From the IMG/VR virus record IMGVR_UViG_2786546475_000043, positions 1,534 to 65,533 of that record: a stretch of 64,000 nt of DNA; one strand, written 5' to 3'. This DNA is from a virus. Its lineage: Duplodnaviria > Caudoviricetes. The notes under the pieces were generated by a model. The model worked only from the letters and a program-made list of their open reading frames with translations. It made no database searches and was not told the DNA's origin. A program made the translations under genes and the position numbers. This document shows, piece by piece, positions 19,174-37,476 of the stretch (its first letter is position 1; each line of letters begins with the position of its first letter).

Positions 19174-22100
19174 ATGGCAGCAATTATTCAATTCCGTAGA
19201 GACACCGCCGCCAACTGGACTTCTAATAACCCCACGATGGCCCTTGGGGAAATCGGATACGAAACCGATGGTGGCGGCAATTACAAGATTGGTGACGGAT
19301 CAACCGTATGGACCTCCCTCGGCTACGGCGGTTTGGGGGACATCCACAGGACGCTGATCGATGCCAAGGGCGACCTTATTGTCGGTACGGCAGCCGACAT
19401 AGCGGGTCGGCTTGCCGTAGGAAGCGATGGGCAGCACCTCGTTGCCGACAGCAGTGCTGCTGGTGGCGTTTCGTGGGCAACCAGTACTGAGAGTATTGAA
19501 GACGTTGTTGGCGCTCAGTTCGTTACCAACGGATCGCACAGTGGAATTAGTGCCACCTATGACGACGCTGGTGACGGTGCCATCGACCTGAATGTCGACG
19601 ACTTTACGATCACCTTGGCTGGCGACCTGAGCGGTAACGCGACCATCACCAACCTTGCTGATGCGACACTGACTGCAACCATCGTTGCTGACGCGACAGC
19701 GTTGGGAACCGATACCACGGGTAACTATGTCGCCACAGTCGCTGGCACTGCCAATGAGGTTGAGGTTTCCGGATCTGGTTCAGAAACGGCTGCCGTAACC
19801 GTCGGTCTACCTAGCGATGTAACTGTCACAACCTCCCTTACCACTCCTCTGGTCAATATCTCCGGTGCGTCCATCGTCCTGGAGGGTGCTACCGCGAATG
19901 ACTTTGAAACCACTCTGACGGTCACAGACCCCACAGCAGATCGCACAGTCACGCTCCCGGATGCAACGGGAACGGTAGTTACGACCGGGAACCTGAGTGC
20001 CGCCACAGAGCACATCGAGGACACTGTCGCTGCCCAGTTGGTTACCAACGGCTCCCATTCCGGCATCGCTGCTACCTATGACGACGCCGGTGACGGTGCG
20101 ATTGACCTCAACGTCGATGACTTTACGGTCACCCTTGCTGGAGATCTTGGTGGTAGTGCCACTATTACCAATCTCGCCGATGCAACCCTCACCGCAACAA
20201 TCCAAGCGAACTCAGTTGCCTTAGGTACAGATACAACTGGTGATTACACCGCCAGTCTCGTAGCTGGCACCGGTGTCACTCTCACTAACAACAGTGGGGA
20301 AACTGCGACCCCGACCGTTGCTATCGGACAGGCCGTAGGTAGCTCAGACACTCCCACCTTTGGGGCAGTCACAATTTCTAATGCCGTCGCCAACGCAACT
20401 CACGCCGCTACCAAGGCCTATGTCGACAACGCCATCGCAGGTCTCGATTGGCATGAGGCTGTCAACTATGGCTCTGCTGCGGCATTGCCAAATACTCCGG
20501 CCTACGACAATGGGACTTCCGGGGTGGGGGCAACCCTGACCGCTGGTGCCCAGGTTCGCCTTGTCATTGACGGTGCGAATGCAACTACCGGAAATCGAGT
20601 TCTTGTTCAAGACCAGGCAACCGGAGCCCACAACGGCATTTACGACGTAACCGCTCAGGGCGCCGCAGGTTCCGCCGCGTGGGTGCTCACGAGGGCCACC
20701 GACTTTGATGGCGCACCCACTGGTGAGATCAAAGCGGGCGAAGCTGTTTACGTTCTGTCGGGTTCCTCCAACAGCGGGCAGGGCTTCGTGGTCACATCCA
20801 CAAGCGACCCGCATACTGTCGGATCAGACACGATCACCTGGACCCAGTTCACCGGCACCCAGGCGTTCAGTGCCGGTACATACCTAACGATTACCGGCAA
20901 CACCATCGACCATGATGCCTCTGGAGTTTCTGCGGCTGCTTACGGAAGCGCCACTCAGGTCCCCGGATACACCGTTGACGCTCAGGGCCATTTAACCGCT
21001 GCATCGAACACAACGATTGCCATCCCGTCAACCGCAATAACCGACTTCACTGAGGCAGTTCAGGACGTAACTGGGGCTCAGGTAGCCACCAATGGCTCTC
21101 ACACCGGCATAGCGGCCACCTATGACGATGCTGGCGATGGCGCTGTAGATCTTACCCTTACAGCTTCCGGCGTCTCTGCTGCCTCCTACGGAAGTGCGAC
21201 TCAGGTTCCGGGATACACAGTCGACACCTATGGCCGGTTGACTGCAGCATCGAATACGACAATCGCCATCCCGTCTACGGCTGTTACTGACTTCACAGAA
21301 GCAGTACAAGACGTATCTGGTGCCCAACTTGTTACCAACGGTTCGCACACTCATCTAACCGCCACCTATGACGATGCTGGCGACGGCGCAATTGACATTG
21401 CGCTAAATGTCACGGCTGTTACCGCAGCGGCTTATGGCAGCGCCACCCAAGTTCCTGGCTACACGGTTGACGCCTACGGACGTTTGACTGCTGCGTCGAA
21501 CACCACGATCGCCATTCCTTCAACAGCAGTGACGGACTTCACGGAAGCCACTCAGGACGTTGCGGGTGCCCAGGTGGCCACGAACGGTTCACATACGGGG
21601 ATCTCTGCCGCGTATGACGACGCGGGCGACGGTGCTATTGATCTGGCGCTTACCGCTTCGGGAGTTTCAGCAGCGGCGTATGGCAGCGCTACTCAGGTAC
21701 CGGGCTACACGGTTGATGTTTATGGGCGCCTAACCGCTGCGGCGAACACAACGATCGCTATTCCCTCGACAGCAGTTACGGACTTTACGGAAGCTGTCCA
21801 GGATGTCTCTGGCGCACAGCTCGCTACCAATGGATCACATACTGGTATTACCGCTACCTACGATGATGCCGGTGATGGCGCTATCGATCTGGCTCTCGTC
21901 ACAGAGAATGTTCAGGATATCGCGGGCGCCCAGTTGGCGACTAATGGAAGTCACACGGGAATCACTGCTACTTACGACGATGCCGGTGACGGTGCTGTCG
22001 ACCTGGCTCTGATTACCGAAAATGTCCAAGACATTTCTGGTGCGCAGTTGGCGACCAACGGCAGTCACACGGGGATCACCGCGACGTATGACGACGCAGG

Positions 22101-24285
22101 CGATGGAGCGATTGATCTTGCCCTTATCACGGAGAATGTCCAAGACATCGCGGGCGCTCAGATCGCGACGAACGGTACCCACGTTGGCCTAACAGCCGCC
22201 TATGACGACGCCGGAGACGGCGCAGTAGACCTGACGGTCGCAGCGACCCTTGGAACCCACACCTCTGGCAACTATGTCGCCACTGTCGCCGGTACCGCCA
22301 ATGAGGTTGACGTTTCTGGTTCCGGTTCTGAAACCGCAGCCGTAATTGTTGGTTTGCCTGCTGCCGTTACCGTTACTACTTCTCTTACAACTCCGTTGGT
22401 CAACGTGTCTGGCGCGTCCATTGTCATTGAGGGTGCAACAGCAAATGACTTTGAGACCACTCTGACAGTCACCGACCCCACAGCGGATCGCACAATCACC
22501 TTCTTGGATGAAACCGGCACCGTCTTCACAACAGCAAGTGTCCAAGCCCTAGCAAACGGTGTCACCGCAACGACTCAGTCGGCAAGCGATAACAGCACCA
22601 AGTTGGCCACCACCGCTTATGTGGATACGGGTCTTGGTGCCTTGAGCAGTGACTCAATCACTGACGCTGATGGCGACACGAAAATCCAGGTTGAAGAATC
22701 GGCTGATGAAGACATCATCCGCTTCGATACGGCTGGAACCGAGAGGATGTCGATTGCCGCTGATGGTACTGTCACCATCGTCGGGAATCTGACAGTCAGC
22801 GGAACCACAACTGAGATCAGTTCCACAACGATCACCGTTGACGACAAGAACATCGAGCTTGGTTCGGTTACTACCCCGACAGACGTTACGGCTGACGGTG
22901 GCGGACTCACCCTGAAGGGCACAACTGACAAGACCTTCAACTGGGTTGACTCGACCGATGCCTGGACATCATCCGAGCACCTCGCCCTTGCTACCGGCAA
23001 GAGCGTGTACATCGATGGTGTTCTCCAGTTGTCCAAGAATGCGCTCGCGGCCACTGTTGTCCTGGCTGATGGTGTTGCAGGAACAACACAGGCGCAGAGT
23101 AACAACTCCACGAAGGTTGCTACTACGGCTTACGTTGATGCTGGTCTTGGTGCTCTGAGTAGCGATTCGCTGACCGATACTGATGGTGACACTCTCATCC
23201 AGGTTGAAGAGTCAGCCGATGAGGACATCATTCGTTTCGATACTGCTGGCACAGAACGGATGACCATTGGTGCTACCGGCATAATCGCCACGACAGGCAC
23301 GAACATCACGTTGGCCAACGTCGCTTCTCCGACAGACCTCACTGCTGACGGAACTGGTTTCACTCTGAAGGGTGCTGCCGACTACACGATTAAGTGGAAC
23401 GACGTAGACGAACTTACCGCTGAACTTAATTACTGGGAATCCAACCAGAACATCGTTGCCACCACCCCGACGAAGGCTCTACATAGCGACTACAAGGACC
23501 ACGGTCTAGAAATAGGCACTATCGCTCTCGGCAGTACCATCCACTACGGAACGGCAACTGCTGGAAGTGCCACGACGATCACTCTCGCTGCTGGAGCATC
23601 GGCTGTGGACGATGCCTACAACACCTTCAAGATCAGGATCAGGTACGGCACCGGGATTGGTCAAGAACGAACCATCACCGATTACGTTGGTTCGACCAAG
23701 GTGGCGACTGTAGCCGCATGGACAGTCACTCCTGACGCAACCACCCAATACTCGATTATTCAGTCGTATGTCGACTATTCGGGTATCGCCACCGTTGGTC
23801 AGTCGCCCTCCACCACCGAGTATCTGATGGCAACTGACGGTTCTTATACTTATCTTGGTACTGGCTCTGGTGGAAATACTGCTATTTACACCTACAACGG
23901 TAGTTTGACCGCGAGATTTGATTACGGCGGTGTCACGCTCGGCTATTCAGGTACCAAAACCTACGGTCGGCTCACTAGCCACGCTACAGGAACTACTAAA
24001 ACAGCTTCCTACACGGCAGCTCTAGTAGACGAATCTTCTTATATTTGGATGAACGTCGCTAGCGCTAACACTTTCACTGTCCCACCGGCCTCGAGTGTCG
24101 CATTCGATAGCGGCACGATGATGACCATCATCCAATATGGGGCTGGACAAACAACTATTACTGCTGGTAGCGGTGTGACGCTTATCGCTACTCCAGGCTT
24201 GAAGCTTCGGGATCAAAACAGTGTTTGTACTATTGTTCATTACACAGCAGACACTTGGTTGGTATACGGGGACTTGGACGACTAA
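19174..24285 (+). CDS. Large modular tail fibre (Mtd/hyaluronidase-type N-terminus)
   Basis: IQFRRDTAANWTSNNPTMALGEIGYETD N-terminus; internal repeats; C-terminal receptor-binding-like domain ending TWLVYGDL. Confidence 0.85.
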   Translation: MAAIIQFRRDTAANWTSNNPTMALGEIGYETDGGGNYKIGDGSTVWTSLGYGGLGDIHRTLIDAKGDLIVGTAADIAGRLAVGSDGQHLVADSSAAGGVSWATSTESIEDVVGAQFVTNGSHSGISATYDDAGDGAIDLNVDDFTITLAGDLSGNATITNLADATLTATIVADATALGTDTTGNYVATVAGTANEVEVSGSGSETAAVTVGLPSDVTVTTSLTTPLVNISGASIVLEGATANDFETTLTVTDPTADRTVTLPDATGTVVTTGNLSAATEHIEDTVAAQLVTNGSHSGIAATYDDAGDGAIDLNVDDFTVTLAGDLGGSATITNLADATLTATIQANSVALGTDTTGDYTASLVAGTGVTLTNNSGETATPTVAIGQAVGSSDTPTFGAVTISNAVANATHAATKAYVDNAIAGLDWHEAVNYGSAAALPNTPAYDNGTSGVGATLTAGAQVRLVIDGANATTGNRVLVQDQATGAHNGIYDVTAQGAAGSAAWVLTRATDFDGAPTGEIKAGEAVYVLSGSSNSGQGFVVTSTSDPHTVGSDTITWTQFTGTQAFSAGTYLTITGNTIDHDASGVSAAAYGSATQVPGYTVDAQGHLTAASNTTIAIPSTAITDFTEAVQDVTGAQVATNGSHTGIAATYDDAGDGAVDLTLTASGVSAASYGSATQVPGYTVDTYGRLTAASNTTIAIPSTAVTDFTEAVQDVSGAQLVTNGSHTHLTATYDDAGDGAIDIALNVTAVTAAAYGSATQVPGYTVDAYGRLTAASNTTIAIPSTAVTDFTEATQDVAGAQVATNGSHTGISAAYDDAGDGAIDLALTASGVSAAAYGSATQVPGYTVDVYGRLTAAANTTIAIPSTAVTDFTEAVQDVSGAQLATNGSHTGITATYDDAGDGAIDLALVTENVQDIAGAQLATNGSHTGITATYDDAGDGAVDLALITENVQDISGAQLATNGSHTGITATYDDAGDGAIDLALITENVQDIAGAQIATNGTHVGLTAAYDDAGDGAVDLTVAATLGTHTSGNYVATVAGTANEVDVSGSGSETAAVIVGLPAAVTVTTSLTTPLVNVSGASIVIEGATANDFETTLTVTDPTADRTITFLDETGTVFTTASVQALANGVTATTQSASDNSTKLATTAYVDTGLGALSSDSITDADGDTKIQVEESADEDIIRFDTAGTERMSIAADGTVTIVGNLTVSGTTTEISSTTITVDDKNIELGSVTTPTDVTADGGGLTLKGTTDKTFNWVDSTDAWTSSEHLALATGKSVYIDGVLQLSKNALAATVVLADGVAGTTQAQSNNSTKVATTAYVDAGLGALSSDSLTDTDGDTLIQVEESADEDIIRFDTAGTERMTIGATGIIATTGTNITLANVASPTDLTADGTGFTLKGAADYTIKWNDVDELTAELNYWESNQNIVATTPTKALHSDYKDHGLEIGTIALGSTIHYGTATAGSATTITLAAGASAVDDAYNTFKIRIRYGTGIGQERTITDYVGSTKVATVAAWTVTPDATTQYSIIQSYVDYSGIATVGQSPSTTEYLMATDGSYTYLGTGSGGNTAIYTYNGSLTARFDYGGVTLGYSGTKTYGRLTSHATGTTKTASYTAALVDESSYIWMNVASANTFTVPPASSVAFDSGTMMTIIQYGAGQTTITAGSGVTLIATPGLKLRDQNSVCTIVHYTADTWLVYGDLDD
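19490..22240 (+). repeat. Protein-level repeats in the fibre: 9x YDDAGDGA, 4x YGSATQVPGYTVD
   Basis: Counted in the translation; codons differ between copies; boundaries approximate. Confidence 0.9.
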
Positions 24286-24288: not shown

Positions 24289-24822
24289 ATGGTACAGAGC
24301 GGGCAAGGCCAAGAGCAGCCCAGAAAGGGCATAGTCCCCGACATCGTTGGGGAAACGATTAGTAACGCCAACTCTCAGATCACTTCAGCTAATTTTGATG
24401 TAGGAACGACTACTGCAACTCCCGCCCCTTCGGGGAATCCGGGGGTCGTGGATACGGTTGTCAGCCAGGTACAGACGGCTGGAGAGCTTTACATACTCGC
24501 GACAGATATCGACTACACCTATTACAGCCCCCATTTCCCCCCGTATTTCCCCCCGTTCTTCCCTCCACACTTCCCACCCTTCTTCCCACCTCACTTCCCC
24601 CCGTTCTTCCCACCCTTCTTCCCTCCGCATTTTCCACCCTTCTTCCCACCCTTCTTCCCCCCGTTCTTCCCACCATTCTTCCCGCCATTCTTCCCGCCCC
24701 ACTTCCCCCCGTTCTTCCCACCGTTCTTCCCCCCGTTCTTCCCACCACATTTCCCGCCATTCTTCCCACCGTTCTTCCCGCCCCACTTCCCTCCGTTCTT
24801 CCCACCGAGCTTTAAGGGGTAG
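24289..24822 (+). CDS. PASTA-like domain protein with a (F/H/Y)FPP x23 tail
   Basis: IVPDIVGETISNA..VVSQ..AG is PASTA-like; aa 82-173 are 23 xFPP units; 3 nt after the fibre stop. Confidence 0.8.
   Translation: MVQSGQGQEQPRKGIVPDIVGETISNANSQITSANFDVGTTTATPAPSGNPGVVDTVVSQVQTAGELYILATDIDYTYYSPHFPPYFPPFFPPHFPPFFPPHFPPFFPPFFPPHFPPFFPPFFPPFFPPFFPPFFPPHFPPFFPPFFPPFFPPHFPPFFPPFFPPHFPPFFPPSFKG
24532..24807 (+). repeat. 12-nt period coding tandem repeat (xFPP x23)
   Basis: 15 FFPP, 7 HFPP and 1 YFPP, with varied synonymous Pro codons. Confidence 0.95.
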
Positions 24823-24824: not shown

Positions 24825-25862
24825 ATGAAACCAATACACCCAAATCTTCGAGATCCCCATGACCACTGTCCTCACCACGAGGAGACAAGTCAGTGCACCG
24901 ACGATTGCAAGTTAGGATTTCTCAAGCGAGACATGTCGGCTTATGACTTTGAGATTCCGTCAGCAGACGGAACTAATCCCAACATCTTGGCCGACTCCAT
25001 AGGGAAGGTCACACTGCTATTCAATGTTGCGGCTGGCTGTGGTAATTATCCTCAAATGGTTGCGCTCAAGGTACTGGACGAGCACTACGCGGATGAAGAT
25101 AATTTTCAGATTAAGGCCATCGTTGTCGATGACTTTACTTGCCATGGATTCGGCGAGTTCAATGAGGGCCTAGAGGCATACGCCGAGAAGGAGCATGTCG
25201 ACGAGTCCTTTCGGGGTCTAAATGCTGGTCAGATAGCTGAGAAGTACGCCCGTGAACAGTACGAGGTTGAATTCGAGTTCTCTGAATGCATCAACGGGCG
25301 GTTCGATAAGCATCAATACGACCCGGAATGGCAACCTGGAACACAATATGAACAGGAAATGCATCCATTTTGGCAGTACCTACTACAGGTAGATCTTCTT
25401 CCGCGAGATGAAAACAACCTGCCCTACCATTATGAAGTCAGCCCATGGGCCAAAGAGGAGCAAGTAGTCGACTTAACCCAAGAAGGATTCCATGGGCTTC
25501 AGGGTAATTTCGAAAAGTTTCTCATCACTCCTGATGGTAAAAGTTTCAAACGATACGCGAATGGTTTCCTACTTGGCGAGCGTGATACTTCAGGAGCCAT
25601 GTTCCCCTGGTGGCTAAGTCCAGAGGAGCAGGAGGGTCCAGAATTTCTGACCTATCCAAATCCACTACAGCTCCGAGGAATCCAGGAATCATTGGCCACT
25701 CTCTGCGCAGACATCGACGCTCTGCTCGTGGGTGATGACAAGATTTACGATCCCGAGGAATTTGATGGCGACTATGTGCCCCCCACGGAATCAGCTAGGG
25801 ACGCCATTAGGAAATATGGGGACGAATTCACCAAGGGTCTCGGAGTACAGGAAACGGCGTAG
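24825..25862 (+). CDS. Glutathione peroxidase-like protein (Cys type, with insertions)
   Basis: GKVTLLFNVAAGCG, HPFWQYL, GNFEKFLITPDGK. Confidence 0.8.
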   Translation: MKPIHPNLRDPHDHCPHHEETSQCTDDCKLGFLKRDMSAYDFEIPSADGTNPNILADSIGKVTLLFNVAAGCGNYPQMVALKVLDEHYADEDNFQIKAIVVDDFTCHGFGEFNEGLEAYAEKEHVDESFRGLNAGQIAEKYAREQYEVEFEFSECINGRFDKHQYDPEWQPGTQYEQEMHPFWQYLLQVDLLPRDENNLPYHYEVSPWAKEEQVVDLTQEGFHGLQGNFEKFLITPDGKSFKRYANGFLLGERDTSGAMFPWWLSPEEQEGPEFLTYPNPLQLRGIQESLATLCADIDALLVGDDKIYDPEEFDGDYVPPTESARDAIRKYGDEFTKGLGVQETA

Positions 25863-25877: not shown

Positions 25878-26531
25878 ATGCCCGACGAGGACATGGATGT
25901 CGACTACGACCATTCCCTGGTCGAGCCCGGACACTTCGGGGATTCCTCAGATAACATCATAATTATTAAGAATCTTGTTGCGCCTGAAGATCTCAAGAGG
26001 ATCCATGAACTCCTTCCGGAAATTGGGATCTGGTATAACCCCAGTCCGAACATGTACAACGATGAAGGTATCTGTATCTACGACGCTCAGTACTGGTGGG
26101 ATCGCGTAGTCAATACTGCAATTCTCCGAGACAACTATCTCGAGCTCCACGATCTCATTGACAAGTACAACATGTTGGTCAAGGCAGCCATCGAAGACAA
26201 GTTTGGCTACAAGGTATTCATGCGACCACCTTCCCTGGTCCGCTGGCTGCCCGGCTGCGTCCAAGAACCCCATGCGGACAAACAGCTAAACGATGGAACC
26301 CCCAACCCGTTCCCCACCTATGACATCAATTCGGTCATCTATTGGAATGACGACTTCGAGGGTGGGCAGTTCTATTACGAGCAGCATGACATTGAGTTGG
26401 AAATCGAGCCCGGCATGGCCGTAGTCCACCCGGGTGATGTCCACTACCTCCATGGCGTCAAGCCGGTAACATCAGGAGTGCGTTGGACCAGTCCTGCGTT
26501 TACTACGATCACGAACCTAGGAGAGATGTAA
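25878..26531 (+). CDS. 2OG-Fe(II) oxygenase, prolyl 4-hydroxylase-like
   Basis: EPHAD, YWNDDFEGGQFYY, YLHGVKPVTSGVRW. Confidence 0.9.
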   Translation: MPDEDMDVDYDHSLVEPGHFGDSSDNIIIIKNLVAPEDLKRIHELLPEIGIWYNPSPNMYNDEGICIYDAQYWWDRVVNTAILRDNYLELHDLIDKYNMLVKAAIEDKFGYKVFMRPPSLVRWLPGCVQEPHADKQLNDGTPNPFPTYDINSVIYWNDDFEGGQFYYEQHDIELEIEPGMAVVHPGDVHYLHGVKPVTSGVRWTSPAFTTITNLGEM

Positions 26532-26532: not shown

Positions 26533-27243
26533 GTGAAGATCGCTGGTTACTGCGGAAATCCATTCATGGCCATTATGTTGTACAAGGAAGTATGGCCGGA
26601 CCCACAAAACTTAGTTGACCGACTAGAAGCTGCTCTTGCTGAGAGCGAACACGAATATTTCTCCTGGAAGAAGGCCACCGTCGGAGATGTCGAGGAAATG
26701 CTCGATTATCGAGATTGTAGTGATTTTAAGATCAGCGAAGCAGTCCTTCCGGTAGGAGCAGACGGTTTCGAAGATCTGGGGGCCATCTACACGGAGTTCA
26801 TTGAGCCAGTCAGGGAGTGCGTTCACAACGATTACGCGAAGAGGTACAACCTCACCCTGGAGTTTGAAGAAGCAACCAACTTTGTCCGGTATTACGAGGG
26901 CCAACACTTCTCGCTACACCCCGACCACGGGTTCTCGTACTGCGCTACTACGTCCACTATTGCATGGCTCAACGACGACTATGAGGGTGGCGAACTGGTC
27001 ATCCCTTACATGGACATCAAGTTCACCCCGGAAGCTGGGGATCTCATGGTCTTCCCCTCGAACTACCCCTACGTCCACCAGTCGTTGCCAATAATCGGAG
27101 ACAAGCCGAAGTATTCAGCGGTCACGATGTATGACTACAACGATCGAAACCATCAGGATCACGGTCAACCACACGCAGCGCTCCAGTACGCACCGGGAGG
27201 ATCAACGCATGACGGACAAATCCAGTCTGCCTCTGCCGCTTGA
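26533..27243 (+). CDS. 2OG-Fe(II) oxygenase, prolyl 4-hydroxylase-like
   Basis: FSLHPD, WLNDDYEGGEL, FPSNYPYVH..KYS. Confidence 0.9.
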   Translation: MKIAGYCGNPFMAIMLYKEVWPDPQNLVDRLEAALAESEHEYFSWKKATVGDVEEMLDYRDCSDFKISEAVLPVGADGFEDLGAIYTEFIEPVRECVHNDYAKRYNLTLEFEEATNFVRYYEGQHFSLHPDHGFSYCATTSTIAWLNDDYEGGELVIPYMDIKFTPEAGDLMVFPSNYPYVHQSLPIIGDKPKYSAVTMYDYNDRNHQDHGQPHAALQYAPGGSTHDGQIQSASAA

Positions 27244-27706
27244 GGTCCTTAACCAGGGCGTAATCGACAACAATGTTGGGGATCGATTCGGGGGCCGAGG
27301 GTTAGCGGCCGGGGTAGCTGGATGGCTAAGCATTGCCATTGTCGACATTGACCCAGAGACCGGAATTTGCCACACAGCTTTCGCTGTGGAGAAAGAACAT
27401 CTCATGTTCACCGGCCATCTACACGGTGCCTGTATAACTGCCCTGATCGATACGTCGCTACCCCTAACCGTTTACCCGTTCGTCCCAATTGGCTCGGTGG
27501 TATTTGTCGGTCATCTGGGTGTCGATTACCTGAGTAGCGTCACGGAGGGCATTTGCGACGCCTACACGACAATCGAGTCTTTAGGTTCAAGTACAGCCGT
27601 GCTTAGAACCAAGGTTGAGAACAAGGGTCGATTGGTAGCCCTTGGAAATGGAACCTGCCACATCAAGAACTTCGACAACAGAAGCAAACTAACAACGGAC
27701 TCCTGA
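27209..27706 (+). CDS. PaaI-like thioesterase (hot-dog fold)
   Basis: GHLHGACITALID, HLGVDYL, GRLVALGNGT; SD GGAGG before the ATG at 27209. Confidence 0.85.
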   Translation: MTDKSSLPLPLEVLNQGVIDNNVGDRFGGRGLAAGVAGWLSIAIVDIDPETGICHTAFAVEKEHLMFTGHLHGACITALIDTSLPLTVYPFVPIGSVVFVGHLGVDYLSSVTEGICDAYTTIESLGSSTAVLRTKVENKGRLVALGNGTCHIKNFDNRSKLTTDS

Positions 27707-28596
27707 TGGAAGTAAATGTCATAAGAAATCATCAGAATCCTCCCGAGATTCGTCAGTGCCGTCCTCGTCGGGATTGGATGGATGAAAGCTACAAAAAGCA
27801 CGCCTATAAGTGCCTACCCTTAACTGCGGCAAACACACACGGGTGGGAAGTGGTTCTTCAACAAGATGTAACTGTGATTTTAGATGACTGGGAAACCATC
27901 CCCAGAGTCCTTGAAGGTCAAACGATTACCCATAGCATTTTTCAGGAGCAGCCCGAAGAAAAGGCTCCCCCTCCCCCACCCGGCAAACGTAGGTGGATAG
28001 GCAATCCTCCCGAGGGTTGGGTTGAGCCGGTCCATGTTCCGGAATCTGTGTTACCTCTTGAGCCGGAAATCCTCCAGACTTACGAACGCGATATTCCCAT
28101 GCCTTCTATCGTAGGAACCATCTCGTTGGCTGTTGATTGGGTCATGAATCCCGGCGAGGGTTACAGCACGTTTATTTCTGGTCCACCCAACTACTTCATG
28201 GACGGCATAGTTCCCCTGACGGCGATGATCCCAGGGTGGTGGCCTGATCCGTTTGCCATGAATTGGAGGATCACCACGCTCAATACTCCGATCACCTTTC
28301 CGAAGGGGATGCCTTACATGTGGTTCACCTTCGTAAAGGACGATTTCCTGCCGGACATCAGGTTCAATGTCAGCGGTACCTGGAATGATCCTGAGTTAAT
28401 GGAAGAGCGAGCCAGCTATGGGGCGGAAAAGAGTCGCAAAGAGATAGAGCAACCGTGGGTTTGGATGGGCGGACTCCGAACCGGCCTCAATGAACACGGG
28501 GAGAGAGTCGGCCCGAAACATGAAGGTCACCCAATTTTGGATGTACCGACTTATGAGGCGGGTAGGGGTTCGGTTTGGGACAAGGTGGATCAATGA
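27706..28596 (+). CDS. DUF6065-like protein
   Basis: RRDWMD...HAYKCLPLTAANTHGWEV, GPPNYF, FAMNWR, FPKGMP. Confidence 0.75.
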   Translation: MEVNVIRNHQNPPEIRQCRPRRDWMDESYKKHAYKCLPLTAANTHGWEVVLQQDVTVILDDWETIPRVLEGQTITHSIFQEQPEEKAPPPPPGKRRWIGNPPEGWVEPVHVPESVLPLEPEILQTYERDIPMPSIVGTISLAVDWVMNPGEGYSTFISGPPNYFMDGIVPLTAMIPGWWPDPFAMNWRITTLNTPITFPKGMPYMWFTFVKDDFLPDIRFNVSGTWNDPELMEERASYGAEKSRKEIEQPWVWMGGLRTGLNEHGERVGPKHEGHPILDVPTYEAGRGSVWDKVDQ

Positions 28597-30434
28597 ACAA
28601 AGATGAACTAGACCCAAAGTCTTCTCAGGAGAAGACCGCCGCATGGGGTGACCAGCGAGGCCTTACCAAGAAAAAGAGGATGAAGGGAGACGGAAATGAC
28701 TCCCACAGTGGTACTGGAATGGCAGCCGGGATGTTTACTGATGCTATGGGACTTCGACTCCAAGGAATAACCCCACAGCAAATTCTTGACGATCAAGAGT
28801 GGTACAGGGGCTTATTGCTCAAACATAAGGCGATTGGTTTCAAGAGACTGAACCCGACAAGAGAAGAGCATCGTGATGTTTTGAGGGCCCTGTATAGCGG
28901 AGAGCACGAGAAGATACCAGGGATCGACCTCGGCCCACTACCCGAGGGCCAAGAGCAGGGTTGGGGAGAAGTCTTCGATGTCACTCATGACTGGATTGAA
29001 ACCAGCAATCAAGGTGTTAAAGAAGACTGGGGACACACGTTTATAGACAAAAACTGGCACATAGACGGTCTCGCCTTTAGAGATGACGTACCGGCACTCA
29101 CAAGCATGCTCATGACGCGCCACACAAAGCTTGTGGAGAACGACGACACTTGTGTCGCGAGCTTGGAATACTTATATGAGATCATGCCTGACGAGTTCAA
29201 AGAGAAATTGCAAGATGCTCGCCTAACCCACATCAACACGGGCCAGTCTCGCACTCACCCAGCTTTACGAACTCATCCAGTGACGGGAGTCACTTCTCTT
29301 TGTTTTGCGATAGAAACATTTTCTAACGATCCGAAGTTGTTCCTGGATAACGCTGTAGAACGGGTGGAACAAAAGATAGACCCGGAAGGTCAAGATAGAG
29401 AAGACCGTCTTCAGGTAACTGGCGCTGTCGATGCCGATGGCAACGTGATAGATATGGGTGAAATCAAGCAATGGGTCATGGATCAGCTGAAAGATCCAAG
29501 GTTGCGGTTTACCTGGAGATGGGATGAAGGTGATCTCTTCGTTTGGGACAACAGGTGTCTTGTTCACACATTCGACAGTGGATTCATAGTCGGTGAACGG
29601 ATATTCAATCGTGTCGAAATGGGATTTGAAGTTCCTTATTACGACCCAACCAAGAATCCAGAGCCGAAGCAATACGAGAAGCCCCAATCCCCCGTCAACA
29701 CGAATAAAACCAGTTCGGAAGAATTTGACAAATCAGTCGAAGCACCAATAGCTGAGGATTGGGCCACCGCCCCCGCCACCCAGGATCACATCCCATTGGT
29801 ACTTACGGAGGGGATTTACGCTCTCCCGGAATACAAGTACTTAGCGAATGGGGTAACACTTTTTGTCATTGTCAAGGACCAGTATTCCAGTGTTCCCGAC
29901 GAGATCATGAGCCTGCGTGAACGTTGCGAGGATCCAGATTTCCATGTCATAAAGGTTCCATACGATGAGAATCACATACTCATCAAGAAATATGCCAGAC
30001 ATTGGCATCCTGGTGAACCGTTGATAGGCCAAATATTTGTCTTCACCAGGAATGGTGACTATTCCACGTCGTTCACCTCAATATCTGATGAGCTTATGGA
30101 CAGCAATACTTTATGGACCGATATTACGTCGCTGCTGGAGCAGCGTAGGGATTTCCGACATGCCGGACACGCTTGGCATTATCCAGACTTTATGAGTTAT
30201 CCGAATCACATGCTGCGGCCATACCATTGGCGGAACTTGTTATTCGAAAGCTACACGGACTTTGACGAGAAAGAAGGCCCCCCCAAAGACTTTTTGGTTC
30301 AGTACGCCATCGACCACATCTTCGGATGTTTCAATCACTACAAGACAAACGAAGAGCGAAAAGAACTCGTTGAGGACGTAAGGGACTATCTGGACATCAT
30401 GCTGGAAATGAACGAACATGAGCTTGGACGCTGA
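28593..30434 (+). CDS. TauD/TfdA-family dioxygenase with an extra C-terminal domain
   Basis: WHIDG, HPALRTHPVTG, WDEGDLFVWDNRCLVH; ~250 extra C-terminal residues; ATGA overlap at 28593. Confidence 0.85.
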   Translation: MNKDELDPKSSQEKTAAWGDQRGLTKKKRMKGDGNDSHSGTGMAAGMFTDAMGLRLQGITPQQILDDQEWYRGLLLKHKAIGFKRLNPTREEHRDVLRALYSGEHEKIPGIDLGPLPEGQEQGWGEVFDVTHDWIETSNQGVKEDWGHTFIDKNWHIDGLAFRDDVPALTSMLMTRHTKLVENDDTCVASLEYLYEIMPDEFKEKLQDARLTHINTGQSRTHPALRTHPVTGVTSLCFAIETFSNDPKLFLDNAVERVEQKIDPEGQDREDRLQVTGAVDADGNVIDMGEIKQWVMDQLKDPRLRFTWRWDEGDLFVWDNRCLVHTFDSGFIVGERIFNRVEMGFEVPYYDPTKNPEPKQYEKPQSPVNTNKTSSEEFDKSVEAPIAEDWATAPATQDHIPLVLTEGIYALPEYKYLANGVTLFVIVKDQYSSVPDEIMSLRERCEDPDFHVIKVPYDENHILIKKYARHWHPGEPLIGQIFVFTRNGDYSTSFTSISDELMDSNTLWTDITSLLEQRRDFRHAGHAWHYPDFMSYPNHMLRPYHWRNLLFESYTDFDEKEGPPKDFLVQYAIDHIFGCFNHYKTNEERKELVEDVRDYLDIMLEMNEHELGR

Positions 30435-31233
30435 AGTACTAGGCAGCGGTGTAGTCCTCTATCGAAACGCCGTAGAGCTGGATTGGGACTTCATTCGAGA
30501 CTTCTCTAAGGAATCAGCAGAGAAGGAACTGGCCTCCATGTATACCCCGGGGAAAGATCCGATCTCGGGGGAAGAGGGGTTCATCAACCGCAACGGGTAT
30601 TTCTTTCCTTCTCGGTCGGTGTGGCTCATGCCCCAGCACTGTGCCTACGTCCATTCGGACATGCGTCCAGAAGCTCGAAAGGCATTGAATGCACTGGAGA
30701 AGGCCAGAGATTTATGTCTGTGGCATTACCTCCATAAGTTCCCGCTGGCAGGCAAGTGCATCTGGTGGAGAATCAAGGGACACATCCTGGTCTATCCGCC
30801 CGGCGGGTTTCTCGGGATGCACTCCGACCAGAGCACGGACTACGAATACGGCTCCCCTCACCCCACCGACCAGATAGCCACTCGAACCGTGGTGTCCACG
30901 CTGGGCTTCCTCAACGACCACGTCGACACCGAGGAGGAGCTGGACGGCACCAACTTCACTGGCGGACTGGTGAAGTTCGAATACCTGGGTATTGAATACA
31001 CCCCGGCCAAGGGCGACATTCTCGTATTTCCATCGAACTACATGGCAGCCCACGGCGTGACGGAAGTCGGCGGGGGTCCCCGATATTCACATGTTGGTTG
31101 GTATTGCCACGGAACACCTAATTCCCAATACAGGGAAAATGTTGTAGACCCCATCGAGGACCCTGAGATGGCGGAAACCGCAACAAACATCTACATGCCA
31201 GAAGGCTACAAACTCCCCGATGCACAACGCTAA
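30418..31233 (+). CDS. 2OG-Fe(II) oxygenase (WW-GH subfamily)
   Basis: IWWRIKGHILVY, MHSD, FPSNYMAAH..RYS. Confidence 0.9.
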   Translation: MSLDAEVLGSGVVLYRNAVELDWDFIRDFSKESAEKELASMYTPGKDPISGEEGFINRNGYFFPSRSVWLMPQHCAYVHSDMRPEARKALNALEKARDLCLWHYLHKFPLAGKCIWWRIKGHILVYPPGGFLGMHSDQSTDYEYGSPHPTDQIATRTVVSTLGFLNDHVDTEEELDGTNFTGGLVKFEYLGIEYTPAKGDILVFPSNYMAAHGVTEVGGGPRYSHVGWYCHGTPNSQYRENVVDPIEDPEMAETATNIYMPEGYKLPDAQR

Positions 31234-31792
31234 GCGACACTCAATCGTTGATATTGGCTATTGGACCTGTGACATAGATGCCAATGCCCGAGCTATTCAC
31301 GATCTTGTTGTTGAGAAACACGAACCGAATAAGGATTTCGACTTACCAATCGGGAATCTCACTATGGATCTGCGGCAGAACATCACGACGGCTGCTTGTC
31401 AACTTCTGGGACGACCGTATTACATTGACGCCATTTGGGGCGTGTACACGGCGCCTGGTCAATCTGTTATGGCTCATTCCCACTGGTCGAATACTTGGCT
31501 GAATCCAGAGGAACACTTCTCTTTCTGCTACTACCCCCTCTGCCAAGAAGATGATGCTGACATGGTGATTCACATCATGTACTGCAATCGTCTTGAAAAG
31601 CTTGAAAGCATTCCGCTTCGTCCGGGTCTGTTGGTCATCTTTGGGGCGTACTATCAACACATGACAACAAGACAGTTTCCTGACAGGGACCGGGTGTCTA
31701 TAGCTGGTAACCTCTACCCTTATGAGTCCACCGGTATTCCAATACGACGAGAAATGCGACAAGGTGTAACGAGCGACGACTTATGGCAGTAA
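31220..31792 (+). CDS. Putative 2OG-Fe(II) oxygenase (TIGR02466-like)
   Basis: IWGVYTAPGQSVMAHSH, FSFCYY, PGLLVIFGAYYQH, RVSIAGN. Confidence 0.75.
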   Translation: MHNAKRHSIVDIGYWTCDIDANARAIHDLVVEKHEPNKDFDLPIGNLTMDLRQNITTAACQLLGRPYYIDAIWGVYTAPGQSVMAHSHWSNTWLNPEEHFSFCYYPLCQEDDADMVIHIMYCNRLEKLESIPLRPGLLVIFGAYYQHMTTRQFPDRDRVSIAGNLYPYESTGIPIRREMRQGVTSDDLWQ

Positions 31793-32454
31793 TTGGAATT
31801 GCCCACATCGGGAAGATGGGATTCAGCATTGCGGATGCCCTCATTCGCTCTGGCCACGAAGTTCTTTCGGCTTGCGGTGACCGTTCAGAAGAAACACGCG
31901 CACGGGCGGAGAAGATCGGCACCCGCGAGGTTGAGAAGCTCACTTCGCTCTTCGATGAGTCCGAATTCATGTTCTCCATCGGCAGTGGGATGGTTCACTG
32001 TGAACAGGCGGTTTGGAACGAAGAGGCACAGGACATGCTTACGCCAGATGGCAACCTTCCCAAAGCTGTTGACTTTCCAATGATCCGTGCTGCCATAAAC
32101 GCCGACTTCCAAGGCATCTATGTTGATTGCAACTGGTTTCATGAGCAACATTGGGAGCTCTTGCGGACAGTCAGCAAAGAACTGCCAAGTTACGTCGAAT
32201 GTGCCATTTACGGTTGGCCCGTCGGAGACGAACGCGACCTCTCTGGAACCTCTGGACGGATAATGTGGTTATCCGGAGACGACGAGGCACCAGTGGGTCG
32301 TCTCTTCAAAGAGGATTGCGGAATGAATTTACAACCCTTGCCCTTGGGGGCGTCGGCACTAGAACACAAAGAATACGTTACCCACGGGTCCGGATTGGCA
32401 GAGAGGATTGCAGCAGATGACCAAGTGCGTCGTTCATCAGTCGGGGGTTGTTGA
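31783..32454 (+). CDS. NAD(P)-binding oxidoreductase (6PGD/HIBADH-like N-domain)
   Basis: VIGIAHIGKMGFSIADALIRSGHEV, YVDCN. Confidence 0.75.
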   Translation: MAVIGIAHIGKMGFSIADALIRSGHEVLSACGDRSEETRARAEKIGTREVEKLTSLFDESEFMFSIGSGMVHCEQAVWNEEAQDMLTPDGNLPKAVDFPMIRAAINADFQGIYVDCNWFHEQHWELLRTVSKELPSYVECAIYGWPVGDERDLSGTSGRIMWLSGDDEAPVGRLFKEDCGMNLQPLPLGASALEHKEYVTHGSGLAERIAADDQVRRSSVGGC

Positions 32455-33199
32455 ATTTCCAAACGCTTTCACGGTAGATCCGGATGCGTTAGCTCAATGG
32501 ATGGAGCTTCGTCGAACCTGCGAGCCGGATGACTACACGGTTAACGACGACGGGAACTTCGTGAACAGGGGTGGATACGTCTTCACCCCTGAGCAATACC
32601 AGTCATCGCCGAGTCGGTTTCTGAATCTCGAACCGGAAGGCGAAGATACAACGTTCCTTGAATCGATCCTGGACGTTATGTACAAGTGCGTACTCGAGTA
32701 CATCGACATCTTTCCCACTGTTGCTCATTCGATTTGGTGGCGAACCGACGGACAGGTGGCCTCCTACAAGGATGGACAGGGCATGGGTCCCCATCATGAC
32801 CGGGCAATCGAATACATCCCGGGTGATATTCCCGCCAGTGAGGCTCCGATCCACAATGAGATAACGGGCTCGATCGTTCTTCAGAAAGCCGAAGAGGGCG
32901 GACAACTTTTGTTTCCCATCAACAAAACCACCGTCGATGGCGAGGCGGGCACGGCAATCCTCTACCCGTCCAATTACATTGGATCACACGCGGTAGCGCC
33001 GGTTACTAGGGGCGAACGACTGTCATACCTCGAGTTTTATGGACAGGGAACCCCGGGTGGCTATGAAGGAAACGCCCCAGCCCAGCAATCATGGTTTTCT
33101 GCTCTACTTGACCCAGAAACCGGACAGCGTCCTATGTGGGGTCAGAGTGGTCACGAACGCGGCGAGATAGTCGGTGATCCGCCTCCAGCTCAGTCATAA
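32417..33199 (+). CDS. 2OG-Fe(II) oxygenase (WW-GH subfamily)
   Basis: IWWRTDGQVASY, PHHD, YPSNYIGSHAVAPVTRGERLS. Confidence 0.9.
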   Translation: MTKCVVHQSGVVEFPNAFTVDPDALAQWMELRRTCEPDDYTVNDDGNFVNRGGYVFTPEQYQSSPSRFLNLEPEGEDTTFLESILDVMYKCVLEYIDIFPTVAHSIWWRTDGQVASYKDGQGMGPHHDRAIEYIPGDIPASEAPIHNEITGSIVLQKAEEGGQLLFPINKTTVDGEAGTAILYPSNYIGSHAVAPVTRGERLSYLEFYGQGTPGGYEGNAPAQQSWFSALLDPETGQRPMWGQSGHERGEIVGDPPPAQS

Positions 33200-33926
33200 C
33201 ATCTTGCTCCAGGGCGGGTAGCCACGTTCGCCCCTGCAGCCCTGATTTGCGCTCGGACTGAATCACAATCCCTCTATCAGGGGCCGAAGTTCCCTGCCCA
33301 AACGTCGAGATGTACGAGTACCGGGTACCCTCGATGACCGGCGTAATTTCATGAGCCCCCATGTAGTTACTTGGGAACAGGATGTGGTCACCCGGACCAA
33401 CTCGGACTTCAAGCTTCAGGTGTTCGAACTTGATATTTCCTCCACTGAAGCCAGCTCCCAACACCAATGTGGACGACACCGTGTTGAACAGGGCTGTCTG
33501 GTCCTTGGGGTGATCTCCAAAGCGGTAGTTGACATCGTTGTCACTGTGCATCCCTAGCAGGGCCCCTTTGCGATACACCGCGACGTGACCTCCAGCGTCC
33601 CACCAACAAGAGGGCATGGCGTCTGGATAGAGGGTGCAGTAGGCAACAAGGTTCTTGTAGATGGCCCTGTCACATTCAGCAAAAAAAACCGGATCTAAAG
33701 GCTGGTTGATCCGTATTGGCATAGTGGAGATGTGTTCTGCTGGAATGAGGTGGCCACTTTGATTGGTCCCATTCCCGTCTTCATCCAGGTCATACATCTC
33801 GACAAGGGCCTTGTCGGCCATCTCCCTAAGATCCCGTTCCAACAGGGTTGGCATACCATCGTCAAGATCGGTGATGGTGTCGTGAAACTTGACTACACCT
33901 CCACCCAGTTGATGGGCCCACACCAT
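33132..33926 (-). CDS. 2OG-Fe(II) oxygenase (WW-GH subfamily)
   Basis: CWWDAGGHVAVY, MHSD, FPSNYMGAHEITPVIEGTRYS; start placed at MVWAHQ behind AAGGAG. Confidence 0.88.
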   Translation of the reverse strand: MVWAHQLGGGVVKFHDTITDLDDGMPTLLERDLREMADKALVEMYDLDEDGNGTNQSGHLIPAEHISTMPIRINQPLDPVFFAECDRAIYKNLVAYCTLYPDAMPSCWWDAGGHVAVYRKGALLGMHSDNDVNYRFGDHPKDQTALFNTVSSTLVLGAGFSGGNIKFEHLKLEVRVGPGDHILFPSNYMGAHEITPVIEGTRYSYISTFGQGTSAPDRGIVIQSERKSGLQGRTWLPALEQDVMTELEADHRLSRRVRDHSDPT

Positions 33927-33927
33927 C

Positions 33928-34908: not shown

Positions 34909-34910
34909 GA

Positions 34911-35963: not shown

Positions 35964-35971
35964 AATTGTTC

Positions 35972-36733: not shown

Positions 36734-37038
36734 TACGCACGTCCAATCGCTAGAGCGCGCCTGCGCCAAGCCCGTCGGATAACGGCAATCAAGAGTTGTT
36801 GTTTAACAAAAGTCCATTCATCCGCTGCCAATATATGAGCGGTACCTTCTACGGCTGGACCATTTGCATAGGTTTCACGGATCTTATTGACGATGTCGTC
36901 AATAGTTGTGGTGTCGATGTCTGCCCAGTCGAGTCCTGCGGTAAACATGACCCGCGCCACTTCACCTTCAGACCACGTCAGTTCATCATCGTTCGAGTAG
37001 AGCGATCCAACCGTGTCCTGCGTGGTACGGACAGTCAT
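36733..37038 (-). CDS. Hypothetical ~100-aa protein (triad member)
   Basis: Coupled on both sides; similar to 42261-42560. Confidence 0.75.
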   Translation of the reverse strand: MTVRTTQDTVGSLYSNDDELTWSEGEVARVMFTAGLDWADIDTTTIDDIVNKIRETYANGPAVEGTAHILAADEWTFVKQQLLIAVIRRAWRRRALAIGRA

Positions 37039-37250
37039 GATTCGTCTCCGGCGGCCCTCCGGAACCCAGGGCAGAAGGTCACAGAGTTATCAGATACCCA
37101 TTCCCAGGCGCTCAATGTTGGATTCCAACGGCGAATGTCGTTATCGCGTGATTCGTTTGGCAAGGTGTCGTAGTATGCACCCGCCGTTTCTCCAATTTCA
37201 CCGCCATGAATGGTTCGACCTGCCGCTATGGCGTCTGTCTGGACGGTCAT
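37035..37250 (-). CDS. Small hypothetical peptide (triad member)
   Basis: ATGA-type overlaps; RWNPTLSAWE..SVTFC. Confidence 0.7.
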   Translation of the reverse strand: MTVQTDAIAAGRTIHGGEIGETAGAYYDTLPNESRDNDIRRWNPTLSAWEWVSDNSVTFCPGFRRAAGDES

Positions 37251-37456: not shown

Positions 37457-37462
37457 AGTGAA

Positions 37463-37471
37463 ACCTTACCA
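37463..37471 (-). promoter_or_regulatory. Extended -10 TGG-TAAGGT, leaderless start at 37456
   Basis: 6 nt to ATG. Confidence 0.6.
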
Positions 37472-37476
37472 GACCA

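What the first reader, a model, noticed from the sequence alone, without database searches (positions are those of the whole stretch)
24289..24822. PASTA-like domain fused to 23 tandem (F/H/Y)FPP units
Seen: aa 82-173 are exact 4-residue units (15 FFPP, 7 HFPP, 1 YFPP), with His every 2-6 units. Pro codons vary (ccc/ccg/cca/cct), which points to selection on the protein rather than recent slippage. There is no signal peptide, and the gene is coupled between the fibre and the GPx-like gene. Known: PASTA domains bind peptidoglycan fragments in Actinobacteria, and polyproline-II peptides are P4H substrates. Inference: an extensin-like hydroxylation substrate, a multi-core precursor peptide, or an aromatic PPII rod on the virion.
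Basis: partly seen in the sequence, partly recalled or inferred. Interest (0 to 1): 0.8.

Follow-up and report, generated by a model that had tools for sequence, protein, structure and literature searches.

The report
Phage PASTA head on aromatic-proline rod
An uncultured tailed phage encodes, right after its giant tail fibre, a small protein with a cell-wall-binding (PASTA) head and a rod of 23 Phe/His/Tyr-Phe-Pro-Pro units. This repeat module is common in phages, almost absent from cells, and nearly always followed by collagen-type proline-hydroxylase-like genes, so it is a testable candidate substrate for these unexplained phage enzymes.

Summary
ORF 24289-24822 (177 aa) has exactly 23 xFPP units (15 F, 7 H, 1 Y). 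All nucleotide variation is synonymous or changes only the first, always aromatic, residue, so this frame is under selection.

The N-terminus is a true PASTA domain. A family profile hits M. tuberculosis PknB PASTA at E 2e-12. The AF2 model has pLDDT 89-97 there, and the top 28 Foldseek hits are all PASTA.

The repeat is a mobile module found in more than 119 IMG/VR stretches. It sits behind PASTA, FN3 or giant adhesin-like N-termini and ahead of nothing, Cys-rich knobs or Hint domains. It matched only one contig among 185,579 prokaryotic species genomes, and that contig is itself phage-like.

The gene always starts 1-23 nt after a fibre gene with a conserved C-terminal domain. It is followed on the same strand by a P3H-like oxygenase, a P4H-like oxygenase and DUF6065, which has a dUTPase fold. 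The reverse search from DUF6065 finds an upstream aromatic-proline repeat in 40 of 49 loci.

Best reading: a fibre-associated polyproline-II rod that these enzymes hydroxylate. No chemistry, expression or virion location has been shown. The RiPP, extensin and collagen memberships are not met. This scan had already found the same system on other DNA.

The parts
19174..24285 (+). Giant tail-fibre-like protein (1703 aa). Its last ~100 aa are a conserved C-terminal domain ending W-x3-GD-x3-stop. This domain precedes the repeat gene in all short-N relatives (PASTA-type and two other head types).
   Evidence: phrog_30390 hit. Fibre-like tblastn hits in 69/119 repeat loci, always upstream on the same strand. 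Conserved C-terminal domain in 33 distinct loci (alignment A5).
24289..24822 (+). The finding: a 177-aa protein made of a PASTA head, a (F/H/Y)FPP x23 rod and a 4-residue tail (SFKG).
   Evidence: 165 homologues at E<=0.01. Alignment A2.
24325..24528 (+). PASTA domain (about aa 13-80).
   Evidence: Pfam PF03793 scores 20.9 bits, below the 23.2 cut-off. Profile A1 against PDB hits PknB PASTA 2kui at E 2.2e-12. AF2 pLDDT is 89-97. Foldseek top 28 hits are all PASTA; 3ouv has TM 0.84 and rmsd 1.9.
24532..24807 (+). Repeat tract: 23 x (F/H/Y)FPP, 92 aa. AF2 predicts it without helix or strand at pLDDT 56-66. As a polyproline-II helix it would be about 28 nm long (inference from 3.1 A per residue).
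24825..25862 (+). GPx/thioredoxin-fold-like protein that keeps an NVAxxCG-type Cys motif. It is an accessory neighbour, present in 19/119 repeat loci, all with a short N-terminal head where the repeat gene's start is on the contig, and downstream on the same strand in 18 of the 19.
   Evidence: PF00255 E 1.3e-5, below cut-off..
25878..26531 (+). oxyA: a 2OG/Fe(II) oxygenase, prolyl-3-hydroxylase-like. HxD...H...R residues are invariant in the family.
   Evidence: PF13640 E 8.4e-5. Alignment A6 has invariant H132, D134, H192, R202. Profile against PDB: P3H1 8k0e E 4.6e-7. Homologue in 78/119 repeat loci.
26533..27243 (+). oxyB: a 2OG/Fe(II) oxygenase, collagen-type prolyl-4-hydroxylase-like. 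HxD...H...K residues are invariant in the family.
   Evidence: PF13640 scores 36.5 bits, above the cut-off of 27. Alignment A4 has invariant H129, D131, H182, K193. Profile against PDB: B. anthracis P4H 3itq E 3e-5, LH3 E 4e-4. Homologue in 84/119 repeat loci.
27706..28596 (+). DUF6065 protein with a dUTPase-like fold and invariant His32 and Cys36. It is a constant companion of the two oxygenases.
   Evidence: PF19541 E 9e-34. AF2 model, then Foldseek and VIA-align: the top 22 rows are all dUTPase or dCTP deaminase, Z 10.9-6.0. Homologue in 74/119 repeat loci. At least 594 IMG/VR stretches encode relatives.
28575..42075 (.). Rest of the tailoring island. It holds TauD (28575) and further PF13640 oxygenases (30418, 32408, 33135-, 33931-, 34914-, 38453, 41287). 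It also holds an Oxy_5-like gene (31220), an F420/NADP-oxidoreductase-like gene (31783) and a tryptophan halogenase (39756-41294). This part varies between relatives.
   Evidence: The halogenase is absent from all 242 related loci.

Best explanation
ORF 24289-24822 is a real, selected phage gene. It encodes a PASTA head (a peptidoglycan-fragment-binding fold of Gram-positive bacteria) joined to a 92-residue aromatic-proline tract.

Inferred steps:
1. The tract forms an extended polyproline-II-type rod of about 28 nm.
2. The protein is made together with the giant tail fibre by translational coupling. It sits on or beside that fibre as an accessory adhesin or spacer for a Gram-positive, probably actinobacterial, host.
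3. The two prolines of each unit are hydroxylated in the infected cell by the two conserved oxygenases encoded just downstream. One is P4H-like with a 2OG-binding Lys. The other is P3H-like with an Arg. This would resemble the 3Hyp-4Hyp pair of collagen and would stiffen or functionalise the rod. The dUTPase-fold DUF6065 protein would act as a third, unknown component.

Shown here: the repeat, the selected frame, the PASTA identity, the modular family, its near-restriction to viruses, and the conserved gene order.
For: - Selection on the frame.
- PASTA identity.
- Family and modularity: the repeat occurs behind PASTA, FN3 and giant FN3/InlB-repeat proteins, and before Cys-rich or Hint ends.
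- Virus restriction: more than 119 viral stretches against 1 phage-like MAG contig in 185,579 species genomes.
- Coupling to the fibre: the start lies 1-23 nt after a fibre ORF with a conserved C-terminal domain.
- Forward linkage: with at least 2.5 kb of downstream DNA, a P4H-like gene follows within 2.5 kb on the same strand in 23/27 PASTA-type, 25/26 FN3-type and 18/20 N-truncated cases.
- Contigs lacking an adjacent cassette: 10/18 carry DUF6065 elsewhere, including both that are at least 90% complete; the 8 without it are 8-53% complete.
- Reverse linkage: 40/49 DUF6065 loci with at least 3 kb upstream hold an aromatic-proline repeat ORF, always upstream on the same strand.
- Depth of divergence: the order persists where DUF6065 is only 22-26% identical (FN3-type) and in the Hint-type branch, which has a different repeat unit.
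- Enzyme identity: intact HxD...H plus Lys or Arg, with P4H, P3H and LH as nearest solved relatives.
- Competing substrate: the Gly-rich GNP protein in the same island is not a conserved neighbour, 0/242 loci.
- Host: the tail sheath is closest to actinophage myoviruses, 38% identity.
Against: - There is no evidence of transcription, translation, virion location or hydroxylation.
- The linkage could partly reflect inherited synteny in related aquatic phages.
- AF2 confidence for the rod is only 56-66.
- In PBCV-1, the closest precedent, the viral P4H is active on peptides, yet no hydroxyproline was found in virions (PMC7019647).
- The island also holds a halogenase, TauD and a thioesterase, the type of array that Iyer et al. 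2010 read as secondary-metabolite enzymes (PMC2938197).
- Some repeat carriers (giant and Cys-rich types) have no adjacent cassette.
- Syn9 has a similar oxygenase array but no aromatic-proline repeat.
Confidence: 0.5

Rival explanations
1. The rod is an unmodified rigid spacer or adhesin. The neighbouring oxygenases act on something else: small molecules, host proteins, the Gly-rich GNP protein or small peptides of the island. They merely share the hypervariable region behind the fibre genes.
For: - Iyer et al. 2010 interpreted the homologous Syn9 array as secondary-metabolite enzymes.
- Syn9 has the array after its fibre genes without any aromatic-proline repeat.
- The window island contains a halogenase, TauD, a thioesterase and a collagen-like GNP protein.
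- No Hyp was found in PBCV-1 virions.
Against: - Adjacency is orientation-specific and reciprocal. It survives divergence to 22-26% identity and changes of head domain, repeat unit and C-terminal domain.
- The GNP protein and the halogenase are absent from all 242 related loci, whereas the repeat protein is nearly constant.
Confidence: 0.27
2. The protein is a tail-fibre assembly chaperone or tip protein in the manner of T4/S16 gp38 or Mu Tfa, encoded directly after the fibre gene. The rod is then incidental to virion structure, and the protein may not remain in the particle.
For: The gene always lies 1-23 nt after a fibre gene with a conserved C-terminal domain. The downstream position is typical of fibre chaperones (established knowledge of T4 gp38 and Mu/P2 Tfa).
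Against: - The same repeat is built into 800-1470-aa FN3-bearing proteins and precedes distal FN3, Cys-rich or Hint domains. That fits a structural spacer rather than a chaperone.
- PASTA is a ligand-binding domain of cell-wall sensors.
Confidence: 0.12
3. The protein is a RiPP-like multi-core precursor. PASTA would act as leader, and FFPP/HFPP units would be excised and tailored into small peptides.
For: The units are highly regular and lie next to many tailoring-type enzymes.
Against: - There are no inter-unit cleavage sites. The Pfam scans found no protease, cyclase or RiPP recognition element in the island.
- The tract occurs inside very large structural-type proteins and between folded domains.
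- Unit number varies from 4 to 37, like a spacer.
Confidence: 0.03

Closest known systems
Chlorovirus PBCV-1 prolyl 4-hydroxylase (A085R) and the virus's own Pro-rich repeats such as (PAPK)n (Eriksson et al. 1999, cited in PMC7019647)
   Same: A virus encodes both a collagen-type P4H-family 2OG oxygenase and proteins with short tandem proline-rich units that are plausible substrates.
   Different: The host is eukaryotic. The repeat unit is different and non-aromatic. There is one enzyme rather than a conserved P3H-like plus P4H-like pair with a dUTPase-fold partner, and no tight gene adjacency. Hyp was not detected in PBCV-1 virions.
PASTA domains of PknB/PrkC/StkP kinases and PBP2x (PF03793)
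   Same: Same fold and sequence family. The profile hit is E 2e-12, TM is up to 0.84, and rmsd is about 2 A.
   Different: Here there is a single domain with no kinase, transpeptidase, membrane anchor or signal peptide. It is encoded by a phage and fused to an aromatic-proline rod. Ligand binding was not tested.
Tandem dioxygenase array of Synechococcus phage Syn9 (Iyer, Abhiman, de Souza, Aravind 2010, PMC2938197)
   Same: An array of diverse 2OG oxygenases, a tryptophan halogenase and a Cys-bearing dUTPase-fold protein, placed after the tail-fibre genes.
   Different: Syn9 has no aromatic-proline repeat protein and no Pfam DUF6065 hit. The paper proposed small-molecule products and named no protein substrate.
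Collagen Pro-Pro-Gly hydroxylation by P4H and P3H; bacterial collagen-like proteins with B. anthracis P4H (PDB 3itq/5hv0)
   Same: The nearest solved relatives of oxyB (P4H) and oxyA (P3H1). The substrate is a Pro-Pro dipeptide in a polyproline-II-type repeat.
   Different: The repeat has no Gly-X-Y, so a triple helix is not possible. It has a 4-residue period with two aromatic residues.
Plant extensins and other hydroxyproline-rich glycoproteins
   Same: Rod-like polyproline-II repeats with aromatic residues that depend on P4H.
   Different: There is no Ser-Pro(3-5) motif, no secretion signal, and no glycosyltransferase in the island ORFs scanned. This is an analogy only.

Membership tests
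PASTA domain (PF03793) | Sequence match to the family profile | tested here: met
   The single sequence scores 20.9 bits against a cut-off of 23.2. Many homologues carry a precomputed PF03793 hit. A 23-sequence profile of the N-terminus hits M. tuberculosis PknB PASTA at E 2.2e-12.
PASTA domain (PF03793) | Small alpha+beta fold: one helix packed on a three-stranded sheet | tested here: met
   In the AF2 model residues 11-80 have pLDDT 89-97. The top 28 Foldseek PDB hits are all PASTA; 3ouv has TM 0.84 and rmsd 1.9 A over 69 columns.
PASTA domain (PF03793) | Binding of muropeptide, peptidoglycan or beta-lactam | not testable with these tools
   Needs a binding assay.
Collagen-type prolyl/lysyl hydroxylases (2OG-FeII_Oxy_3, PF13640): oxyB 26533-27243 | Profile match above cut-off, and HxD...H iron triad with a 2OG-binding Lys about 10 residues after the distal His | tested here: met
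   36.5 bits against 27. H129, D131, H182 and K193 are invariant in 17 sequences. The best PDB relative is B. anthracis P4H at E 3e-5.
Collagen-type prolyl/lysyl hydroxylases (PF13640): oxyA 25878-26531 | Profile match, and HxD...H triad with a basic 2OG-binding residue | tested here: met
   The single sequence scores 23.9 bits, below the cut-off of 27. H132, D134, H192 and R202 are invariant in 17 sequences. The family profile hits prolyl 3-hydroxylase 1 at E 4.6e-7.
Collagen-type prolyl hydroxylases | Hydroxylation of peptidyl proline, here in xFPP units | not testable with these tools
Support comes from gene linkage only.
Extensin / hydroxyproline-rich glycoprotein | Ser-Pro(3-5) motifs, a secretion signal and Hyp glycosyltransferases | tested here: not met
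   The sequence has no Ser-Pro runs and no N-terminal hydrophobic segment. No glycosyltransferase family was found among the island ORFs scanned.
RiPP precursor peptide | Leader/core organisation with a dedicated protease or recognition element, and a short precursor | tested here: not met
   The Pfam scans found no such enzymes. The tract is embedded in 800-1470-aa multidomain proteins in relatives.
Collagen-like protein | Gly at every third residue | tested here: not met
   The tract contains no Gly.
DUF6065 (PF19541): 27706-28596 | Profile match above cut-off | tested here: met
   117.4 bits against 26.6. The fold is dUTPase-like, Z 10.9-6.0 over 22 consecutive top rows.

The most novel reading that the evidence does not exclude
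The (F/H/Y)FPP tract is the natural protein substrate of a conserved phage enzyme trio: a P4H-like oxygenase, a P3H-like oxygenase and a dUTPase-fold DUF6065 protein. The trio converts Pro-Pro to hydroxyprolines and so makes a new, non-collagen, aromatic polyproline-II fibre on virions. This would give the first defined function for the abundant 2OG-oxygenase genes of aquatic phages, which are usually filed as auxiliary metabolic genes.
Probability: 0.4. Interest if true: 0.85.

Novelty: new variant of a known kind. Interest (0 to 1): 0.68.

Why it matters
Arrays of 2OG/Fe(II) oxygenases behind the tail-fibre genes of aquatic phages have been known since at least 2010 but have no assigned substrate. 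This finding names a concrete, synthesisable candidate substrate, (FFPP)n, and two specific enzymes to test on it.

If the reading is confirmed, these genes would decorate the virion rather than alter host metabolism. It would also define a new kind of protein rod, aromatic polyproline-II and possibly hydroxylated, whose length varies from 4 to 37 units. Such variation could tune the reach of a phage's adhesin.

The tract has no Lys, Arg, Asp or Glu, so it is invisible to standard tryptic proteomics. That may explain why it has gone unnoticed.

Tried and rejected
- **Readthrough fusion of fibre and repeat protein.** In the window the two ORFs share a frame and are separated only by TAA-ACA. 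Among 37 distinct relatives, 32 have a large upstream ORF ending next to the start, and it lies in relative frame 0, +1 or +2 in 10, 15 and 7 cases. The shared frame is therefore chance.
- **Cultured-phage homologues.** tblastn of the repeat protein and of DUF6065 against 50,697 GenBank phages found nothing. The low-complexity filter masks the tract. blastn of 23000-28000 also found nothing.
- **Literature.** No paper in the searchable library holds FFPPFFPP-type strings. 'FFPP' with 'phage' gave only unrelated hits such as PR-39 peptides.
- **Syn9 as a cultured example.** It has no PF19541 hit and no aromatic-proline repeat.
- **PHROGs.** No family matched the repeat protein or four giant carriers.
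- **Sequence search of DUF6065 against PDB.** Nothing significant came up; only the fold search resolved it.
- **The library-wide profile search.** It was dominated by multi-PASTA giants, and only 14 of 128 new hits carry the tract.
- **His periodicity as a structural signal.** Non-Phe units recur at lags of 3 and 5 units, which matches 36- and 60-nt DNA super-repeats rather than one helical face.
The planned test was fibre C-terminal domain against PASTA head.

Full report
**1. Observation**

The window is an IMG/VR contig of 65.5 kb, estimated 44% complete. It comes from a myovirus with tail-sheath and baseplate genes. The sheath is closest to those of Gordonia, Arthrobacter and Brevibacterium myoviruses at about 38% identity.

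ORF 24289-24822 encodes 177 aa. Residues 82-173 are 23 exact tetrapeptides: 15 FFPP, 7 HFPP and 1 YFPP. TRF finds period 12 with no indels and a 60-nt super-period.

The 23 units use 16 different 12-nt sequences but encode only three peptides. All differences lie in the first codon (F/H/Y) or in the third positions of the Pro codons. Every other frame gives 6-16 variants. The FFPP frame is therefore the selected one, and the tract is not a fresh slippage product. Phe codons are 37 TTC to 1 TTT, against 162:86 in other genes of the window.

**2. The head is a PASTA domain**

Pfam alone is just below threshold, 20.9 against 23.2 bits. A profile of 23 N-termini from relatives (A1) hits the PASTA repeats of M. 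tuberculosis PknB at E 2.2e-12. AF2 models residues 11-80 at pLDDT 89-97 with a strand-helix-strands topology. The first 28 Foldseek PDB hits are all PASTA domains of StkP, PrkC, PknB, PBP1, PonA2 and PBP2x. The repeat itself is modelled without secondary structure at pLDDT 56-66. The polyproline-II rod is an inference from composition.

**3. A widespread, virus-specific module**

- The word-indexed protein search returned 165 homologues.
- The same pattern matched only one contig in one genome each of 185,579 prokaryotic species. That contig is a low-coverage MAG scaffold and is itself a phage-like PASTA-repeat locus.

The tract follows several kinds of N-terminus: PASTA heads, a second ~87-aa head type, two or three FN3 domains, or 700-1300-aa N-terminal regions (whole proteins 800-1470 aa) carrying FN3 or InlB B-repeat domains. 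It is followed by nothing, by a few residues (often x-F-K), by Cys-rich knobs, by an FN3 domain or by a Hint domain.

Over 125 distinct tracts (2059 units) the first residue is F 61%, H 30%, Y 9% and W 0.6%. Tracts have 4-37 units, median 16. The tract therefore behaves as a spacer of variable length between binding-type domains.

**4. Context**

In short-N relatives (PASTA-type and two other head types) the gene starts 1-23 nt after a 300-2000-aa fibre ORF. The last ~100 residues of that ORF form a conserved domain ending W-x3-GD-x3. The shared reading frame of fibre and repeat gene in the window is chance: frames 0, +1 and +2 occur in 10, 15 and 7 relatives.

Three proteins recur downstream on the same strand:
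- **oxyA (25878).** Present in 78 of 119 loci.
- **oxyB (26533).** Present in 84 of 119 loci.
- **DUF6065 (27706).** Present in 74 of 119 loci.

Where at least 2.5 kb of downstream DNA exists, a P4H-like gene lies within 2.5 kb in 23/27 PASTA-type, 25/26 FN3-type and 18/20 N-truncated cases.

Of 18 repeat loci without an adjacent cassette, 10 contigs carry DUF6065 elsewhere, including both that are at least 90% complete. The other 8 are 8-53% complete.

The reverse test starts from a DUF6065 profile, which finds at least 594 IMG/VR stretches. Among the best 81 loci, 49 have at least 3 kb upstream. Of these, 40 contain an aromatic-proline repeat ORF, always upstream and on the same strand.

The order holds where DUF6065 is only 22-26% identical (FN3-type). 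It also holds in the Hint-type branch, whose repeat unit differs (FFPPFFPFFPPYFPP-like). There the repeat gene is followed within about 200 nt by an array of P4H-like genes and, about 2 kb on, by DUF6065.

**5. The enzymes**

- **oxyB** passes the Pfam 2OG-FeII_Oxy_3 threshold. It has invariant H129-x-D131, H182 and K193. Its nearest solved relatives are B. anthracis P4H (E 3e-5) and lysyl hydroxylase LH3.
- **oxyA** has invariant H132-x-D134, H192 and R202. Its nearest solved relative is prolyl 3-hydroxylase 1 (E 4.6e-7).
- **DUF6065** has a dUTPase-like fold. Foldseek gives E 5e-4, and in VIA-align the 22 top rows are all dUTPase or dCTP deaminase, Z 10.9-6.0. It has invariant His32 and Cys36.

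[quoted passage not shown] 2010 noted in the Syn9 dioxygenase array (PMC2938197). Like Syn9, the window island has many oxygenases and a tryptophan halogenase. Syn9 itself lacks an aromatic-proline repeat and a Pfam DUF6065 hit.

**6. Mechanism proposed**

- **Shown:** a selected gene, a PASTA head, a modular virus-specific repeat, coupling to a fibre gene, and conserved adjacency to P3H-like and P4H-like oxygenases plus DUF6065.
- **Inferred:**
  - The tract is a polyproline-II rod of about 28 nm.
  - The protein is a fibre-associated accessory adhesin or spacer for a Gram-positive host.
  - The two oxygenases hydroxylate the two prolines of each unit, by analogy with collagen 3Hyp-4Hyp.

I put about 0.5 on the whole chain. 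I put more than 0.9 on the shown parts, about 0.55 on hydroxylation and about 0.65 on virion association.

**7. Rivals**

- **Unmodified spacer, with the oxygenases acting elsewhere (0.27).** Support comes from the Syn9 precedent, the small-molecule-type enzymes in the island, a collagen-like GNP protein at 45237-46844, and the failure to find Hyp in PBCV-1 virions. Against it, the GNP protein, its paralogue and the halogenase occur in none of 242 related loci, while the repeat protein is nearly constant.
- **Fibre chaperone (0.12).** This fits the gene position. It does not fit the use of the tract inside large FN3-bearing proteins.
- **RiPP precursor (0.03) and extensin or collagen membership.** These fail their defining features.

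**8. Novelty**

No paper in the searchable library contains such repeat strings. The closest published items are the PBCV-1 P4H with (PAPK)n-type repeats, and the Syn9 array paper, which names no protein substrate.

This scan had already reported the same system on other genomes and on this window. I repeated the key tests independently. I also added:
- the P3H-like/P4H-like split of the two core enzymes;
- the dUTPase-fold identification of DUF6065 by two aligners, and its link to the 2010 description;
- the near-absence of the tract from prokaryotic genomes;
- the conserved fibre C-terminal domain;
- the negative test for the Gly-rich rival substrate.

**9. Limits**

Linkage statistics come from fragmentary, partly related contigs and are not corrected for phylogeny.

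Noticed in passing
window 47632-52833 (+): A 1733-aa protein with a lipoprotein signal (lipobox at Cys18), about 700 residues of extremely acidic Glu/Asp/Trp-rich repeats (DEWPEDWGPSPSE-like), a Thr-rich stalk and a Cys-containing C-terminal domain. No Pfam hit. It accounts for the strong GC and AT skew at 50-52 kb.
   Followed up: partly
window 45237-46844 (+) and paralogue 44491-45237: Gly-rich proteins. The 535-aa one has short collagen-like G-N-P / G-T-A triplet runs and a His/Pro/Asp-rich insert, so it is a possible alternative P4H substrate. Neither has a homologue in any of 242 related loci.
   Followed up: yes
window 39756-41294 (+): An intact tryptophan-halogenase family gene (PF04820, E 1e-88) sits inside the oxygenase island, flanked by further PF13640 oxygenases at 38453 and 41287. 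It is absent from the related loci.
   Followed up: partly
window 24532-24807: Phe codons in the tract are 37 TTC to 1 TTT, against 162:86 in other genes. Pro codons are mixed. This may reflect avoidance of T-runs or translational tuning.
   Followed up: no
window 24283-24291: The fibre ORF and the repeat ORF are in the same frame, separated only by TAA-ACA. Relatives show no frame conservation, so this is not a conserved readthrough site.
   Followed up: yes
L234, L236, L238, L239, L244 (about 2-4 kb into each locus): In Hint-type loci, a second kind of repeat protein (867-1024 aa) with long runs of F-P-T / F-P-S triplets lies a few kb upstream of the aromatic-proline repeat gene.
   Followed up: no
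P0122, P0123 and similar hits: Proteins of 2000-3400 aa with 20-31 tandem PASTA domains and signal peptides dominate the profile search. They are an unusually large PASTA architecture of unknown origin.
   Followed up: no
L201 (DUCD01000215.1, binned as Verrucomicrobiales MAG): This is the only prokaryotic-genome hit of the repeat pattern. It is a 25-kb contig with a very low coverage tag (cov_0.075) in its name and an assembly gap inside the repeat. It looks like a phage contig mis-binned into the MAG.
   Followed up: partly
L003-L121 generally: Many IMG/VR contigs end inside the repeat tract, so the tract often breaks short-read assemblies. Counts of complete genes and neighbours are therefore lower bounds.
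   Followed up: partly
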